A DNA stretch of 63,166 bases, the filler included, from Globobulimina sp. (Eukaryota): NCBI GenBank assembly GCA_003354225.1. It is 38 parts of 38 records of this genome, joined end to end, with 100 filler letters (N's around TTAATTAATTAA, not from the genome) between each part and the next. Parts side by side here need not be neighbours in the genome. Positions count along the whole stretch, not along the records: positions 53,285 to 54,848 come from PIVH01014781.1; 37 more parts are not named here. One strand, 5' to 3'. How positions within the stretch are numbered: the stretch's first letter is position 1; every line of letters starts with the position of its first letter. The position numbers and the translations under genes are program-made. Under the pieces are notes generated by a model. That model was given only the letters and a program-made list of their open reading frames with translations, was not told the DNA's origin and did no database searches. This document shows positions 26,665-57,937 of this stretch, piece after piece.

Positions 26665-26692
26665 GAAGTTTTCTTGAAGTGAGCTAGTCATC
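26665..26692 (+). promoter_or_regulatory. 28-bp shared upstream motif, copy 1 (GAAGTTTTCTTGAAGTGAGCTAGTCATC)
   Basis: 27/28 identical to 46103-46130; ends 6 nt before the Vps52 ATG. Confidence 0.55.
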
Positions 26693-26698
26693 GCAATC

Positions 26699-28177
26699 AT
26701 GGCTACCTCCACGTCACCTTTTGCAGACACGTTTATTGCATTAAAGCCTCCTGCAACCAATGCAACATCCTTAACAGAGCAAGCATCAATAACATCAACC
26801 TCCTATTATTTCGTCAATTACATCAGCTTAGAAGACTTAGACTTAACCAATCAAACCGAAGAGATAGATGTTAGCGGCGTAGAAGCAAACTTGAATGCCT
26901 TCCAAGAAGACAATATCGTGGCCATGGCATTAAACCAAAATGTAAATTTAACCAACTATTCCAAAAAAATCGAGAACGACTTGCATAGAGTGGAGATACT
27001 ATCCATTCGCGACTATATCGAGAATAGTGAAGATTTGGTGTCGTTGCATTCGGATATATTGCAAACTGACACTTTATTAGAATCGATGCAGACAATGTTG
27101 TCTGGCTTCCAAGATCATTTAAAGCAAATCTCCGGAGAGATTCGCCATTTACAGGACAAGTCCTTGTCTATGAACATAGAGCTACAAAACGAGAAACAGA
27201 CCGAGACGCTGTTGAATAAATACGTGGATGAATTGGAGATTACCGCTGAATTCATCGACAAGATCACCAACAGCGTTGTGGGTAAGCAATATATCAAACA
27301 TTTGGTCGCATTGAACAGCAAAATACAGTTTCATCAAAGTTTAGACCACGAATGGACTGCCTATCAGGACATTGCTACCAAATTGATCACCTTACAAAAC
27401 AGAGCTACTTTGCGAATCCGAGCCTTTTTAATTACGCAATTCAACGCATTGGGCGTGCCAAAGACCAATATCTCGCTCAAACAGCAGCATTTATAATTAT
27501 TCAAATACTTTATGACTTTCTTAGACCAACGACAGACGAATGACATTTCCATTCGATCCAATCGATTGAAAAGACAGAACTCGTATTCTTCCACGGCATC
27601 GTCCATAATGAGTGGGCGGAGTGGCACCTTTGATGATGGCGACATCGCCAACCAACTACGCGTTTTTTACATCGATTTGATGAGTCGGGTCTATATGGGC
27701 CATTTTCGCAGTTATGTGCAGTCCCTAACTAAGTACCGCGAGACTTGTGTGCCGGGAAGGAATGACTTATTGGCTTGCGATGTGGGCAAAACTGGCGGCT
27801 TATTCTCGAGCAAAAAGTCGATTGAATATTTAAACCGCGTGTTTAATTTAGGCAAACGGATCAATGTCTTGTTGGCCTCGGATGGCAATGGCAGCGGCAT
27901 TCATGGCAATGGCAACAATGAGCCTGCGATTGTGGTACAAATGATCGATATTAACCATCGATTCCAATATGAAGAGATATTCAAATCCTTTCTGAGATTA
28001 TTGACGGATACATCGATCAATGAGTATAGGTCTTTATTGCAGTTGTTTCATCAAAATACGATGTTTAATAAGATATTTGATAAGGTTTTGCAGCAATTTT
28101 TAGAGGAATTTGATGCGTTTAGGCAGTCTTGTTATGATTCGATTGGCTTATTGTTGATGATACGCATCGTTGAGAGG
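26699..28177 (+). CDS. VPS52: GARP/EARP subunit Vps52 with an in-frame TAA at 27494-27496; 3' truncated at an intron donor near 28178
   Basis: SIRDYI..S..LVSLH..I, MLSGFQ..L..IS.EI..LQ.KS..MNI.L.N, PKTN, YEEIFKS...LL.D....EY and CYDSIGLLLMIRI; both ORF halves are in the same frame. Confidence 0.9.
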
Positions 28178-28315
28178 GTATGTAATATGTCGATGTTTTT
28201 TGTTGTTTTTATCCGNNNNNNNNNNNNNNNNNNNNNNNNNNNNNNNNNNNNNNNNNNNNTTAATTAATTAANNNNNNNNNNNNNNNNNNNNNNNNNNNNN
28301 NNNNNNNNNNNNNNN

Positions 28316-49856: not shown

Positions 49857-50275
49857 NNNNNNNNNNNNNNNNNNNNNNNNNNNNNNNNNNNNNNNNNNNN
49901 TTAATTAATTAANNNNNNNNNNNNNNNNNNNNNNNNNNNNNNNNNNNNNNNNNNNNTTTTTTCTTTTTTTGTAATTATTTTTTCAACCATTTTTACATAT
50001 CTTTATGGTTTCGGAATATTATTTAGTCAGCATTGTAAAAAAAAGTTAATGTGTCGAAAATATAGTCTCCTCCTAAAGAATACGAAAATATAGATTTGTT
50101 GCAACATTTACCATATGGAAAGTAAGATTATCCAATAATGAACAAGGAAACGTATGGATAAAACTAAGACGAGAATCACCATTTAAGTCATCTGAATAAC
50201 TGCAATCCTTAATTTACTAGGCTGAAAGTGCGCTCAGTAAAAGAGTTTTTGTGTATTTACATCATGTTTTTAAGG

Positions 50276-51520
50276 GTACCAAAACAAAAAATAAAAGGTG
50301 TATTAAAATCAACAGATAGTAAGAAGCTTCATTGGCGTCAGAATCTCGACCAATTAATTGCTGGTTTGCATAATGCAAAAAAATGGGCGCAAACTGTTCG
50401 TGATCATATTTCGCCGACAATGAGAGCAGCATATAAGGCACACAAATCATGCGATGCCGCATTAGCTGAGGTGTTGGGGCTACCCATTGGCGACACAGGA
50501 ATAACAGTGGGCGATGTGGTGCGGCGGCTGCGGGCAACAAATCCTCGACAAAACTTATTATTTCCAACGATTTTGACAACCAAGAAACTGAAGATAAAGT
50601 TTAAAAAAGTCAGCAACGCAGTGAATGAGTTAAATGGATTATTGACTAAGTTTTATTTATCACTTAAAGGCAATAAAAAAACGTTAGAAGAGAATAGAGT
50701 GTACGCTCAATTTTATCGCCAAATCGTTGATAAAGCTGATAAAATGCGTACGATTTATAAAAAGAAAATCATTACAACCAGAACCCAATCGATTGCAGGT
50801 GGCGACACCTCAAAATTAAAAGCATTGACTGTATGGCAGCCACCAATTCAATCCATTTTCGATATAGATTCATATTGGAGAAAATTCCACGAATTCTGTG
50901 CTCTTGAATTTAGCACAGAAAATCCAGCGTTTGTGAAAGCGGTGAATGATTTGGAAAAAAGTGTTGCCGCCGGATCCTTATCAGATGCCGAGATCCGAAT
51001 GGAAATGACCAATATTTATAATGAATATGTCAGAATTGATTCGGATAAATATATAAATATTGCTGGTGCTCAACGTACAGCTTTGATTAATGCCGCAGGG
51101 AATAATTGGAATGACGCTGTTGGGAATGTAATCGATTTGAATGTGAAACCAAATCCGTGGTCCAAAGCAAAATATGCTGTTCGAATGTTGTTTCAACATG
51201 ATACAATTCCTCGGTTTTATAGGTCTCCGCAATTTGCACAATGGAGGTCGACTACAGACGGCAAAAGAATATATCAAAAGCATTTTAAAGATGAAGAAGC
51301 AACAATGGCACGTCTTGATTATCAAAATGATTATGATTTGCATTTTGATGGTTTTTATGATTCGTATCAAGTTCCAGCGATTCATGATTCTGTGCAGTAT
51401 CAGTTGGTGGATCATCCTGTTCCTCTTCGATCTGTTGATGGTGGTTTTCATTTTTATGATCCAACGTTAATTATTTTGGGTGTTTTGGTTTTTTTCGTGT
51501 TTATCTGTTGTGCGGTTTCC
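50276..51520 (+). CDS. RGS-domain protein with C-terminal TM helix
   Basis: FHEFCALEFSTENPAF, IYNEYV....YINI, AKYAV..LFQHDTIPRFYRSPQF; hydrophobic LIILGVLVFFVFICCAV near the end. Confidence 0.85.
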
Positions 51521-52776: not shown

Positions 52777-53286
52777 TATTTGTGCTTAGCTTTATTTTTT
52801 CTGTACGTTTTTTTAAATAATGTCGTCTTTCTTAAAAATCCAAACCCACGTACGTATGACGATGAATATTTATCATTTATGTTTTAATCATCAAATTAAA
52901 AATTAAAAGGAATTTAAAGATGAAGATGATGAAGATGAAGATTACAATCTTTGTGATTTTGCATTGAAACGTGTTCGAATTGATCTATCCGCATATGATA
53001 GTAATGTAGCACTGCACACACGATCAAAAGTTACATTGCCTGATGACGGCTCAAATAAACGAAAAACACTTGAAATGGATGCTTCGTATACACAATTTTT
53101 GCATACAATGTATGTCGATCCATCAAAAGACGAACAAAATGATGAACTGAATGATGAAGATTTTGACATGGAAAATGAAGAAAGNNNNNNNNNNNNNNNN
53201 NNNNNNNNNNNNNNNNNNNNNNNNNNNNTTAATTAATTAANNNNNNNNNNNNNNNNNNNNNNNNNNNNNNNNNNNNNNNNNNNNTA

Positions 53287-54479
53287 GATACAAAAAAGGT
53301 GAAAGAAATTGCTTTTATTTATGACGATAACGATAACAAAATAACCATTGCAGTCGAACAAAATAATATCATTGCAACTGCATTTCACGCGGAAGTAACC
53401 AGAGGTGATTTATATTGGCACCAATATTTTGTAGAAAAGGTATTTAAATCATTAAATATTAAATACGATATAACTCCATTCAATCCAATCAGAAACTCAT
53501 TAAACGCACAAAGTGCATTATTTTCCTCATGGAGTGTTAAGACTGCAATGCCTCGAATGTTGCAAGGCGGTGTGATCATGGATGTAGTGAATGGAGCGCA
53601 AGCTAAAATTGCTGAAGAAGCAGGCATGATTACTCTACTCCGAATTTACTCAAAGTAAGGTTTTTTTTTACTTTACAATGACAATATCCACACACAACAT
53701 GTACAGGAGCCTGTTCTGTGATGGCATTGGAGCGCATTCCAGCCGATATAAAGAAAGATGGCGGAGTAGCTCGAATGTCTGATCCTAAATTAATAAATGA
53801 AATAATGTCCACCGTCTCCATCCCAGTGATGGCGAAATCGCGTATTGGCCATTTTGGTGAAAGCCGCATCATCGAATCATTGGGTGTAGACTGTATCGAC
53901 GAGTCTGAAGTATTAACCTGTGCCGATGAGAAATATCATATCAATAAACATCCATTCAATATACCATTCGTATGCGGTGCGCGTGATTTAGGTGAGGCAC
54001 TGCGGAGAATCGGCGAAGGCGCCGCCATGATACGGTTGAAAGGCAATGCCGGCACTGGCAATGTAATGGAAGCGGTGCGCCACGCGAGATTGACCTTTGA
54101 TGCCATACGGAGATTGATAGCAATGTCTGAGGATGAGGTATTTGATTATAGCAAGGAGATTGGTGCCCCGCTTGCATTGGTCAAATTAACCAGAAAGTTG
54201 GGACGTTTGCCAGTGGTGACATTTGCAGCGGGCGGCATTGCCACGCCGGCGGATGTTATGTTGATGATGGAGTTGGGCTGCGATGGTGTATTTGTTGGGA
54301 GTGGCATATTCAAATCGGATAATCCGAGGAAAAGAGCCAAAGCAATTGTTCATGCATGTACTTAATATAAATATCCAAGGATTGTGGCAAAAGTTAGTGA
54401 GGATTTAGGTAAAGCTATGGTTGGCATTTTAAGAAAAGGTGAGAAATATGCGTTTATTCACCAGGACTCAAAATTGTAG
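53287..54479 (+). CDS. PDX1: Pdx2 (glutaminase C-terminus)-Pdx1 (synthase) fused PLP synthase; GC-AG intron 53624-53706; internal TAA 54363-54365; ends -SKL
   Basis: [24 protein letters not shown] (Pdx2) in frame with [79 protein letters not shown] and, after the [15 protein letters not shown]. Confidence 0.92.
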
Positions 54480-54948
54480 TTATACCGCGATTTTATTTAA
54501 TGATTTATTCATAGCTAGTATTGCGTATAAGAGGTAGTTACTTTATCTTGATAATCTGCTATAAAAACACTCGTTTTTTTAAAATGAACCATCATATCAT
54601 CACCAATCCAAGATGTATAAGAATGCCAAATCGATCGGATTTAAAACCAAATGATACTGCACAGTCTCTTGTAATATCATACAATGCAAAATAAGCATAT
54701 CACTGATATTAAAAGTAGCATTTTAAAAAACTGACTTTGTTTTTTTTTTCTCCTTGAATTTTGTTGGTGATGTGTATTGACATATATTTTACGTATGTAC
54801 AAAAAGCATATATGTTTTATTCGCCAATATTTGTTGGATGACTCAGGCNNNNNNNNNNNNNNNNNNNNNNNNNNNNNNNNNNNNNNNNNNNNTTAATTAA
54901 TTAANNNNNNNNNNNNNNNNNNNNNNNNNNNNNNNNNNNNNNNNNNNN

Positions 54949-56361
54949 CTCAAATATGACGAATTTTTGAAGCCAAGTTGGTTGTGCAATGAATACACTG
55001 ACGAAGATTTAACAAAGTTGAAAAGGAAAGGAAATGATTATTTCAAAAACGCAAAATATGAAAGAGCACTATCATATTATTTAGCAATCTTACATCGAAC
55101 AATGCATGTTAATAAGAACAGTGATTTAAAACATGATGCCTGGAATAACATATCCTTGATTTATTTTAAAATGCAAAAATATTATACTTGTATTGATAAA
55201 TGTAATATTGCGTTACAGATAAATCCAAAGCATCCAAAAGCATTATATCGCAGAAAACAATGTTTTTCAATTTTAAAGCAATCAAAATTGACAAATAATG
55301 AAGAAAATATACAAATTAATAATAAATATGCACCGACAAACCAATCAATATGTAATAAAATGGGTATTCAATCCTCAGTATTGTATGAAATTAGAACCAT
55401 TCCATTCAGTCAATGCAAAATAGGTTTCTTTGCCACTAAGAATATAAAACAAGGAACCATTATTCTTAAAGACCGAGAGTTGTTTAAATTGCCTAAAACC
55501 GGGCAAGAATCCATTTGCTTCGACAAAGATGGTGGAATAACAAAAGTTAATCAAAATGAAGAAAATCTGAAACAACTTTATCAGCACACTTTGTCACAAC
55601 AGGAACAAGAAATTTTTTCATCAATGAGATCATCAGACATTGAAGTTAAAAATAATAAATTATGGAATATATTTCTAACAAATAATATAGTCATCGATGA
55701 ATATCAAGCAATATTTGCCACGGCATCAAGATTGACACATTGTTGTATACCAAATACAAATGGATATTATAATGAAAAGACAAATAAATATAATGTTATA
55801 TCAGCCTGCGATATTAAAAAAGGCGAGGAAATAACTACGACGTTTCTATCATATATACCAATGTCCAGAAAAGATCGAAGAAATGAATTATTGAAATTAT
55901 ATGGTTTTGTGTGTGAGTGTAAATGTTGTAATTACCAAACATATCAACAATATGAGCAAGCAATTGCAGAATTTGTATATTTGAGACAGGAGTTGTTAGA
56001 TTTAATGATGAATCAGGAATTACTGAAGAAATCAAATCCGTATAAAATCATTGATAAAATATTGAATATATTGCAAACGTATTATAAATCGCATCTACAT
56101 TTCATGGATGATTATACAGAACATGCTGTGTTGTGTTGTATGATAAAAAATGATGTAAAGAATATGGTGAAATATGCTGCAAAACATACATATTGGAATA
56201 ATTTAAAAAATGGACATATTATCGATTCTGGGAAAAAACAATATCGACACAAGTTTGTAACACCAAAATTTTATTCTAATAAAACAAAATTACCCGCTGC
56301 TGTTCAGGATATTATTCAAGTTGTCATCAAAAACAAGAAAATTCCGAAACAATATGTATAA
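54949..56361 (+). CDS. TPR plus SET domain protein (SMYD/SET5-like)
   Basis: KRKGNDYFK and KALYRR TPRs; GFFATKNIKQGTII, SRLTHCCIPN, DIKKGEEIT, YGFVCECKCC post-SET. Confidence 0.85.
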   Translation, partial: LKYDEFLKPSWLCNEYTDEDLTKLKRKGNDYFKNAKYERALSYYLAILHRTMHVNKNSDLKHDAWNNISLIYFKMQKYYTCIDKCNIALQINPKHPKALYRRKQCFSILKQSKLTNNEENIQINNKYAPTNQSICNKMGIQSSVLYEIRTIPFSQCKIGFFATKNIKQGTIILKDRELFKLPKTGQESICFDKDGGITKVNQNEENLKQLYQHTLSQQEQEIFSSMRSSDIEVKNNKLWNIFLTNNIVIDEYQAIFATASRLTHCCIPNTNGYYNEKTNKYNVISACDIKKGEEITTTFLSYIPMSRKDRRNELLKLYGFVCECKCCNYQTYQQYEQAIAEFVYLRQELLDLMMNQELLKKSNPYKIIDKILNILQTYYKSHLHFMDDYTEHAVLCCMIKNDVKNMVKYAAKHTYWNNLKNGHIIDSGKKQYRHKFVTPKFYSNKTKLPAAVQDIIQVVIKNKKIPKQYV

Positions 56362-56612: not shown

Positions 56613-57937
56613 GCAAAACCGGAGTCACCACCTACGATCCCGGTTTTATGTCCACCTCTTCCTGCCATTCCACCATAACCTACATCGATGGCTTAGGCGG
56701 CCGTTTATTGCATCGCGGCTACGAAATCCAAGACTTGTGCGCCAACTCTGATTTTATAGACTTATCCTTTTTATTATTATACGGTGAATTGCCAGGCAAA
56801 AACGATCGAATCCAGCACGAGTCGCAAATTAAAAAACATTCCTTAGTGCACGAGAAATTGATTGGGTTTTATAAAGGTTTCCGTTACAACGCGCATCCAA
56901 TGGCCATTATGTGCGCCGTAGTCGGTGCACTCTCCTCCTTCTACCACGACGAGATGGATATTATGAACCTGGATCATCGCTTACTGTCCGCCTACCGCAT
57001 CATTGCCAAAATGCCTACTTTGGCCGCCATGGCCTACAAAACCTCCATCGGCGAACCCATCGTGTACCCACAGAATAAGTACTCCTTCGCCGAGAACTTC
57101 CTGTTTATGATGTTTGCTATTCCAACGCAGCAATATGTGTGCAATCCCATCAAAGCCAAGGCCTTGGATAAATTCCTAATGTTACACGCCGACCATGAGC
57201 AGAATGCGTCGACGAGCACTGTGCGGATTGCTGGCTCATCGCACGCCAATCCCTTTGCGTGCATTGCGTCTGGGATCACTACGTTGTGGGGTCCAGCCCA
57301 CGGCGGCGCCAATGAGGCGGTGTTGAATATGCTGGAAGCCATTGGCAATGTGGACAATATTGACACCTATATCCGCAAAGCCAAAGATAAGAAGGACCCC
57401 TTTCGATTGATGGGCTTTGGACATCGGGTGTATAAGAATTATGACCCGCGAGCTCAAGTGATGCGGAAAATATGTCACGAGCTGTTGGATGAGCTGAAGA
57501 TTGAGAATGAGCCGTTGTTGGACTTGGCCATGGAATTGGAGCGCATTGCGTTGCGAGACGAATATTTTAAGAAACGCAAATTATTTCCCAATGTGGATTT
57601 TTATTCAGGCATTGTGTTGAAAGCAATGGGCATTCCGCGCTCAATGTATACGGTGTTGTTTGCCGTGGGAAGGACCATTGGCTGGATATCGCATTGGAAG
57701 GAAATGATTGAAGATCCGAAGCAAAGAATTGGGCGACCGAGACAGTTGTATTTAGGCAAAGGCCACAGGGAATATGTTGATATCCAACATAGACCGGACC
57801 AGCATGCGCATTTAGTTGAGAAAATGAATGGGAATAAAGGGAAGGAAACGGGAACAAAGAAAGGGGGATCGGTTGTTGTCTTAGCTGCTCTTAATGAAGC
57901 AATAGACACTGATACCAAAAAAATGAAAGTTGTATAA
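56613..57937 (+). CDS. gltA: Citrate synthase, bacterial type II (GltA-like), 5' truncated
   Basis: [81 protein letters not shown]. Confidence 0.95.

What the first reader, a model, noticed from the sequence alone, without database searches (positions are those of the whole stretch)
53287..54479. Pdx2-Pdx1 fused PLP (vitamin B6) synthase ending in the peroxisomal signal SKL
Seen in the sequence: the Pdx2 glutaminase C-terminus (ATAFHAEVT...WHQYF, catalytic His/Glu kept, usual FHPE Pro changed to Ala) runs without a stop through a ~25-aa linker into a full Pdx1 barrel. Continuing the conserved frame past an internal TAA gives ...[12 protein letters not shown]...HQDSKL-TAG. Established: Pdx1 and Pdx2 are normally separate subunits of a cytosolic 12+12 complex, and -SKL is the canonical PTS1. 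Inference: a single-chain, peroxisome-targeted vitamin B6 synthase, possibly linked to antioxidant supply or peroxisomal PLP enzymes. I cannot tell whether such fusions are already catalogued in related protists.
Basis: partly seen in the sequence, partly recalled or inferred. Interest (0 to 1): 0.75.

Follow-up and report, generated by a model that had tools for sequence, protein, structure and literature searches.

The report
Fused, peroxisome-tagged vitamin B6 synthase
This protist gene joins the two normally separate subunits of the vitamin B6-making enzyme into one chain that ends in a peroxisome address tag, a design shared with many other protists that likely moves B6 synthesis into peroxisomes, although this copy carries a premature stop and is probably disabled.

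Summary
The fusion is real. The Pdx2 end, a ~28-codon linker and the Pdx1 start share one frame, and spliced contigs from three public runs bridge the junction.

The design is not unique. 107 of the 120 best long homologues are Pdx2-Pdx1 fusions, including ciliate and haptophyte proteins; 59 of 107 end in a canonical PTS1. They form one branch in my sample. A haptophyte-type subgroup has an N-terminal presequence instead. Peroxisomal location is inferred, not shown.

This copy looks damaged. TAA stands at a codon that is Tyr in two sister-lineage runs and would cut off 37 residues, SKL included. One independent run keeps the TAA. The probable 5' half, on another contig, has a TAG and an altered catalytic-Cys elbow. 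The code is standard.

I found no paper on the fusion or on peroxisomal B6 synthesis (10 searches), though databases auto-annotate members. The scan had not noted it before. Verdict: new variant of a known enzyme, seen here in a probably dying copy.

The parts
53287..53445 (+). C-terminal part of the Pdx2 (SNO) glutaminase domain, cut by the contig start; His and Glu of the triad kept, FHAE at 53383-53394
   Evidence: Pfam SNO codons 11-53; alignment with close relatives; coordinates
53446..53529 (+). In-frame linker of about 28 codons
   Evidence: Gap between the SNO and SOR_SNZ matches; FHxE-to-IMDV distance 64 here, median 68 in 115 fusions
53530..53623 (+). Start of Pdx1 in exon 1: the stretch aligning with the N-terminal docking-helix region and the catalytic Asp motif (IMDVV, 53575-53589)
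   Evidence: Pfam SOR_SNZ; alignment of relative P0006 to solved Pdx1 chains
53624..53706 (+).
   Evidence: Splice enumeration restores the conserved frame; 83 nt skipped in contigs of X5, X6, X7
53707..54479 (+). Exon 2: rest of the Pdx1 barrel with both catalytic Lys motifs (53829-53843, 54033-54047) and the C-terminal tail
   Evidence: SOR_SNZ E 1.7e-85; NCBIfam PdxS 402 bits against cut-off 395 with X at the stop
54363..54365 (+). Premature TAA at a codon that is TAT (Tyr) in sister-lineage runs X6 and X7; kept as TAA in run X5
   Evidence: table 3; Tyr or Phe in 11 of 11 closest relatives
54468..54479 (+). Ser-Lys-Leu followed by TAG: canonical PTS1 at the family's true C-terminus
   Evidence: Sequence; stop directly after SKL in relatives' loci L049-L051

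Best explanation
The contig holds the 3' two-thirds of a spliced gene that fuses the glutaminase Pdx2 in front of the synthase Pdx1 and ends in SKL; intact relatives likely make a single-chain vitamin B6 (PLP) synthase that is predicted to be imported into peroxisomes, while this copy carries a premature stop and is probably disabled. Inferred mechanism of intact members: Pdx2 hydrolyses glutamine and passes ammonia to its own tethered Pdx1 barrel, which joins ribose 5-phosphate and glyceraldehyde 3-phosphate into PLP. The tether would fix a 1:1 ratio that is transient in two-subunit enzymes and would let one PTS1 carry both activities into the organelle, next to PLP-dependent aminotransferases. 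In the lineage of this genome a recent TAT-to-TAA change removes the last 37 residues, and the probable 5' half carries a second stop, so de novo synthesis is probably being lost while salvage genes remain.
For: Shown: junction bridged and intron spliced in three runs. 107 of 120 best long homologues are fusions; both domains pass NCBIfam PdxS and PdxT cut-offs in 4 of 4 full-length members scanned. The first catalytic-Lys motif is present in 115 of 115 fusions and the second in 113 of 115; the Gly of the Cys elbow is invariant in 83 of 83 aligned rows. 59 of 107 end in a canonical PTS1; the tripeptide varies within the consensus (SKL 51, AKL 8, SRL 1; 5 changes on the tree) and stays terminal with tails of 13-33 residues. 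This genome has PEX2-, PEX10- and PEX12-like genes; 3 of 9 class I/II aminotransferase matches end in SKL. Damage: TAA in this assembly and in X5 at depth 887 with no other letter, TAT in X6 and X7. The only Pdx2 N-half in the genome (C5574) has a TAG and Cys-Ala-Val for Cys-Ala-Gly. No internal stop in 6,407 codons of chaperonin and proteasome matches (my reading of 6 edge stops). The Pdx1 C-terminus is needed for catalysis (PMC3024981). One pyridoxal-kinase-like and two PNP-oxidase-like genes are open.
Against: No localisation or activity data exist here. PTS1 presence changes 7 times on the tree, and 16 of 63 members without a presequence lack a canonical PTS1. The exclusion of PTS1 and presequence (47 of 63 against 0 of 22) rests on one independent event (p = 1). 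Residue -4 is usually acidic, which is not a favoured PTS1 context (recalled). No Pex14_N or acyl-CoA oxidase match was found (uninformative searches), and the genome's 6-phosphogluconate dehydrogenase has no PTS1. Against 'disabled': the gene is spliced and well covered in X5; pN/pS against X6 and X7 is 0.03-0.05; the only Vps52 match also has an in-frame TAA, so stray stops occur in this assembly. The link between C5574 and this contig is inferred across a gap of about 24 residues, and no reads were laid on C5574.
Confidence: 0.6

Rival explanations
1. The organism still has a working gene: the stops belong to one allele or to assembly error, and an intact allele was not assembled.
For: Strong purifying selection against X6 and X7 (27 and 26 synonymous against 3 and 4 missense codons). 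The single Vps52 match also carries an in-frame TAA. The TAG and the elbow change lie near a contig end and rest on the assembly alone.
Against: Run X5, from another study, shows only A at 54365 in spliced contigs at depth 887. Only one copy of each part was found. Two chance stops in 516 codons have P of about 0.003-0.025 at the background rates measured. Contigs drop rare variants, so a minor allele is not excluded.
Confidence: 0.2
2. The terminal SKL is conserved as part of the Pdx1 active-site lid, its Lys standing in for the conserved C-terminal Arg, and the fused enzyme is cytosolic.
For: The tail is a catalytic lid and Arg-to-Lys keeps activity in Bacillus Pdx1 (PMC3024981). Several members keep Lys or Arg at -2 but break the signal (DKL, DKI, DRL).
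Against: Changes S/A and K/R stay within the PTS1 consensus; the tripeptide stays terminal when the tail length changes, as in P0082, P0084 and P0104; a 36-member group lacks the motif altogether.
Confidence: 0.17
3. The TAA is read through as Tyr, by leaky decoding or a local code change, giving a short cytosolic and a long peroxisomal form, as for read-through-derived PTS1 in fungal and human enzymes (recalled).
For: The TAA is transcribed in X5 and sits at a Tyr codon; sequence behind it is unchanged in X7 over 54368-54453.
Against: The short form would lack conserved Pdx1 structure, not just a tag. Sister lineages have a plain Tyr codon. TAA is the commonest end of long frames in the window (19 of 33 closed frames). 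No internal stops among 207 Tyr and 379 Glu codons of housekeeping genes. The probable 5' half would need a second read-through.
Confidence: 0.06
4. The junction is an assembly chimera of separate Pdx2 and Pdx1 genes.
For: The assembly is fragmented (48,370 contigs).
Against: Four runs of four studies bridge the junction, and over 100 relatives share the same architecture and linker spacing.
Confidence: 0.01

Closest known systems
Two-subunit PLP synthase Pdx1/Pdx2 (PdxS/PdxT, SNZ/SNO; PDB 2NV2, 2ISS, 4ADS, 8U7J, 5LNT)
   Same: Both domains, catalytic motifs and the N-terminal helix region of Pdx1.
   Different: One chain in the order Pdx2-linker-Pdx1; none of the 44 matching PDB sequences covers both domains. 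The RGW-type end is replaced by a tail ending in SKL. Signature LKGNAGTG in place of TKGEAGTG. In bacteria the association is transient (PMC11237949).
Database-annotated protist fusions (Ichthyophthirius IMG5_075380, Tetrahymena utriculariae ABPG72_008797, Prymnesium parvum AB1Y20_006409)
   Same: Same architecture and same branch of the Pdx1 tree; the two ciliate proteins end in AKL.
   Different: They are intact. The haptophyte ones carry a 38-51 residue N-terminal presequence and no PTS1. I found only automatic names for them, no description.
Fused imidazole glycerol phosphate synthase HisHF (His7)
   Same: Class I glutaminase in front of a (beta/alpha)8 barrel in one chain; next look-alike in the ESM Atlas (0.79-0.80).
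   Different: Other pathway and other barrel family; an analogue in design, not a member.
Read-through-derived peroxisomal isoforms (fungal PGK and GAPDH, human MDH1x and LDHBx; recalled)
   Same: A stop codon lies in front of an in-frame PTS1.
   Different: Here the stop lies inside the conserved domain and is a sense codon in all relatives examined.

Membership tests
PLP synthase Pdx1 (SOR_SNZ / PdxS) | Family profile over the curated cut-off | tested here: met
   Pfam 286 bits; NF003215 402 against 395 for exon 2 with X at the stop; TIGR00343 not reached by exon 2 alone
PLP synthase Pdx1 (SOR_SNZ / PdxS) | Catalytic Asp24, Lys81, Lys149 and P2-site His/Arg-Arg | tested here: met
   Motifs located in the window; residue roles from PMC3024981 and PMC2266796
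PLP synthase Pdx1 (SOR_SNZ / PdxS) | Intact C-terminal helix and lid | tested here: not met
   This copy: TAA removes the last 37 residues. Relatives: present, but without the RGW end
PLP synthase Pdx2 (SNO / PdxT) | Cys-His-Glu triad with Cys in a Gly-x-Cys-x-Gly elbow | tested here: inconclusive
   His and Glu present in the window; Cys lies on C5574 with Val for the second Gly and a TAG behind it; link of the two contigs inferred. Met in relatives (83 of 83 Gly)
PLP synthase complex | Pdx1 rings with docked Pdx2 and glutamine-dependent PLP formation | not testable with these tools
Protist Pdx2-Pdx1 fusion group | Order Pdx2-linker-Pdx1 in one spliced frame and placement in the fusion branch | tested here: met
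   window exon 2 falls among 111 fusions, SH-aLRT 99
PTS1 peroxisomal matrix proteins | C-terminal [SAC][KRH][LM] directly before the stop | tested here: inconclusive
   Met at the family's true end (consensus from PMC13450307); not reached in this copy unless the TAA is read through
PTS1 peroxisomal matrix proteins | Import machinery in the same genome | tested here: inconclusive
   PEX2/10/12-like genes found; Pex14_N not found; PEX5 not searched
PTS1 peroxisomal matrix proteins | Observed peroxisomal location | not testable with these tools
   Needs imaging or organelle proteomics
Reassigned-stop genetic code | In-frame TAA/TAG at conserved positions throughout conserved genes | tested here: not met
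   0 internal stops in 6,407 codons from 42 of 52 matches; one isolated case in Vps52

The most novel reading that the evidence does not exclude
A single ancient fusion created a one-chain PLP synthase that makes vitamin B6 inside peroxisomes in ciliates, foraminifer-like rhizarians and many uncultured protists, was re-addressed to the plastid in haptophytes, and is being lost right now in this lineage, which would be turning into a B6 auxotroph while its sister lineages keep the gene.
Probability: 0.45. Interest if true: 0.72.

Novelty: new variant of a known kind. Interest (0 to 1): 0.55.

Why it matters
De novo B6 synthesis by Pdx1/Pdx2 is described as a two-subunit enzyme with a transient interface (PMC11237949) and is generally taken to be cytosolic (recalled). 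A natural single chain gives a ready tool to test whether that transience matters for ammonia delivery. A conserved PTS1 would add a vitamin pathway to protist peroxisomes and answer how their aminotransferases get PLP. The fusion is also a shared character of ciliates, foraminifer-like protists and haptophytes but not of apicomplexans, so it bears on gene flow between those groups. The damaged copy may mark a fresh loss of B6 synthesis.

Tried and rejected
Reassigned code: rejected. Chimera: rejected. An intron that removes the TAA: the RNA-like contigs show only the one 83-nt joint. A second, intact copy in the genome: none found; the assembly is fragmented, so absence is not shown.

Bacterial fusions: the ESM Atlas listed a cluster with both domains, 87% Bacteria. 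Among 150 best representatives, 7 had the order Pdx1-Pdx2 and all 7 had at least one partial domain, several with off-frame-looking tails, so I read them as mis-called pdxS-pdxT operons; the Atlas cluster itself was not inspected. A second Atlas query gave no usable hit. Viral origin of the AT-rich subgroup: no locus in viral contigs.

No run is on record as RNA; X5, X6 and X7 are treated as RNA-like only because they skip the intron and end about 50 nt behind the gene. X1 does not cover the TAA. Names of close relatives could not be looked up. The structure prediction did not finish.

Not in print: 10 searches gave no paper on the fusion or on peroxisomal Pdx1. No hit in the text or supplement of the Tetrahymena gene-fusion paper PMC3143110 or in the supplement of PMC5755239. 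Subscription papers are not covered, and the closed supplements of 10.1101/2022.07.20.500910 and 10.1101/2025.04.24.650466 may list this protein.

Full report
What the window is. The window is 38 unrelated contigs of about 1,565 nt joined by N spacers, so neighbours in the window say nothing about context. The finding lies on one of them, 53285-54848, which is G000:C14781 of a 70-Mb assembly in 48,370 contigs. I call the organism foraminifer-like: a homologue at 85% identity is labelled MMETSP1385, which I recall as a foraminiferan, and other notes of this scan use the same word. No call names the organism.

The observation. From 53287 one frame carries the end of a Pfam SNO domain (codons 11-53) and the start of SOR_SNZ (codons 82-118) with no stop between. 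The rest of Pdx1 lies in another frame. An 83-nt GC-AG intron at 53624-53706 restores the conserved sequence, and contigs of runs X5, X6 and X7 skip exactly 83 nt there. The same contigs cover Pdx2 end, linker and Pdx1 start in one piece and reach 152, 582 and 641 nt beyond the 5' end of the window contig; a contig of X1 covers the junction with the intron in place. The fusion is therefore real at DNA and, by the splice, at RNA level; none of these runs is on record as RNA. SKL-TAG lies at 54468-54479 and the internal TAA at 54363-54365, 37 residues before the end.

The family. A search among proteins of 383 residues or more found 1,048 hits; of the 120 listed, 107 have a Pdx2 motif in front of Pdx1. 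Named ones are two ciliates (Ichthyophthirius, Tetrahymena utriculariae) and two haptophytes (Scyphosphaera, Prymnesium parvum); most are unnamed. Toxoplasma, Neospora, Hammondia and Chromera gave Pdx2 proteins without Pdx1. Four of four full-length members pass the NCBIfam cut-offs NF003215 and TIGR03800. In a quick tree of 142 Pdx1 domains, the window's exon 2 and 111 fusions form one branch (SH-aLRT 99) against 30 unfused rows. Rows under 240 residues were dropped, the fusions were picked by likeness to this gene, and no unfused SAR Pdx1 was in the set, so single origin is supported but not proven. None of 44 matching PDB sequences covers both domains. Seven reverse-order hits among 150 representatives look like mis-called bacterial operons.

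The signal. Of the 107 fusions, 59 end in [SAC][KRH][LM], 10 in a degenerate form, 36 in another tail and 2 are cut short. Among 85 with both ends readable, 47 of 63 without an N-terminal extension have the signal and 0 of 22 with one. The extensions look like signal plus transit peptides, and the named carriers are haptophytes (plastid targeting is my inference). This exclusion is one evolutionary event and proves little. Better support is that the tripeptide changed five times within the consensus and stays terminal at tail lengths of 13-33. Against it, presence of the signal changed seven times, and several losers keep the basic residue, which fits a role in the catalytic lid (PMC3024981; passages and first part of section 3 read). 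The genome has PEX2-, PEX10- and PEX12-like genes, and 3 of 9 aminotransferase matches end in SKL. Pex14_N and acyl-CoA oxidase were not found in uninformative searches, and its 6-phosphogluconate dehydrogenase has no PTS1. A preprint predicts peroxisomal pentose-phosphate and gluconeogenic steps in two foraminifera, which would supply the sugar phosphates (10.1101/2022.07.20.500910; passages and section 6 read; it does not mention B6).

This copy. At 54365 runs X6 and X7 read T (TAT, Tyr), while X5, which differs from the window at only two silent places, reads A at depth 887. The 11 closest proteins have Tyr or Phe there. Against X6 and X7 the listed differences are 27 and 26 silent, 3 and 4 missense codons plus the stop, pN/pS 0.03-0.05; 10 table rows were hidden, and counting all hidden changes as missense gives at most about 0.15 (my arithmetic). 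So the gene was under selection until recently. The only Pdx2 N-half in the genome lies at the end of contig C5574, covers residues 5-145 of relative P0006 while this contig starts at 170, and carries a TAG and Val for a Gly that is invariant in 83 of 83 aligned fusions. That the two contigs are one gene is inferred; no reads were laid on C5574. Other departures at conserved columns are no more frequent than in relatives, and FHAE also occurs in P0031 and shows no listed difference in X6 or X7. The code is standard: in 42 of 52 chaperonin and proteasome matches (those with loci) 6,407 codons hold 6 stops, all at match edges or in intron-like sequence by my reading. One caution: the only Vps52 match has an in-frame TAA too, so stray stops exist in this assembly. 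Salvage genes are open: one pyridoxal-kinase-like and two PNP-oxidase-like frames.

How it most likely works. Shown: architecture, splice, motifs, terminal signal, the stop. Inferred from the known chemistry (PMC3024981): glutamine hydrolysis in the Pdx2 domain, ammonia transfer to the barrel, PLP formed from ribose 5-phosphate and glyceraldehyde 3-phosphate. Inferred from the anatomy: the tether fixes the 1:1 ratio that is transient and sub-stoichiometric in Staphylococcus (PMC11237949, passages) and lets one PTS1 import both activities. Whether docking occurs within one chain is untested, as the fold did not finish. My odds: fusion real 0.97; intact members peroxisomal 0.75; this copy disabled 0.75.

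What is known. Ten full-text searches found no paper on this fusion or on peroxisomal Pdx1 (listings seen). A haptophyte genome paper names a pdxS-pdxT pathway without noting a fusion (PMC13518057, passages). Term searches gave nothing relevant in PMC3143110 (text and supplement), PMC5755239 (supplement only), PMC9244630, PMC7052976, PMC13450307, PMC2266796 and two proteomics preprints (passages). Subscription papers and bioRxiv supplements were out of reach. Database names show that members are auto-annotated as PLP synthase.

Verdict. A real, conserved and apparently undescribed variant of a well-known enzyme, with a testable prediction about where protists make vitamin B6, met here in a copy that is probably dying. 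New variant of a known kind; interest 0.55.

Noticed in passing
window 53624-53706: The intron uses a GC donor although a canonical GT donor (AAA|GTAAGG) lies at 53655; using that one would shift the frame.
   Followed up: partly
window 26678-28213 (+): Vps52 gene with an in-frame TAA at 27494-27496 inside the Pfam match; the only Vps52 match in the genome; no convincing intron removes it.
   Followed up: partly
L045 (G000:C6661): A PEX2-like RING peroxin gene lies beside a 276-codon P-loop kinase-like frame (weak PRK match) on the other strand that ends in SKL-stop.
   Followed up: partly
P0064, P0038, P0124, P0087: A well-supported subgroup of fusions on long contigs whose PTS1 is decayed (DKI, ENI) or cut off; origin unknown, not found in viral contigs.
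   Followed up: partly
P0034-P0118 (haptophyte-type group): Fusions with a 38-51 residue N-terminal presequence and no PTS1, suggesting B6 synthesis re-addressed to the plastid; early branches of the group have neither signal.
   Followed up: partly
window 54638-54848; L002-L006, L008: DNA behind the gene is a repeat found on five other contigs at 70-91% identity, among them the far end of C5574, the contig with the Pdx2 N-half.
   Followed up: partly
L078, L080, L085: Three aminotransferase frames ending in SKL-stop, two of them in tandem on G000:C858.
   Followed up: partly
P0133: A protein with an SNO domain and a SAICAR synthetase domain in one chain; not examined.
   Followed up: no
window 54952-56358, 56615-57934, 50213-51520: Unrelated neighbouring contigs encode a TPR-SET protein, a citrate synthase and an RGS-domain protein.
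   Followed up: no
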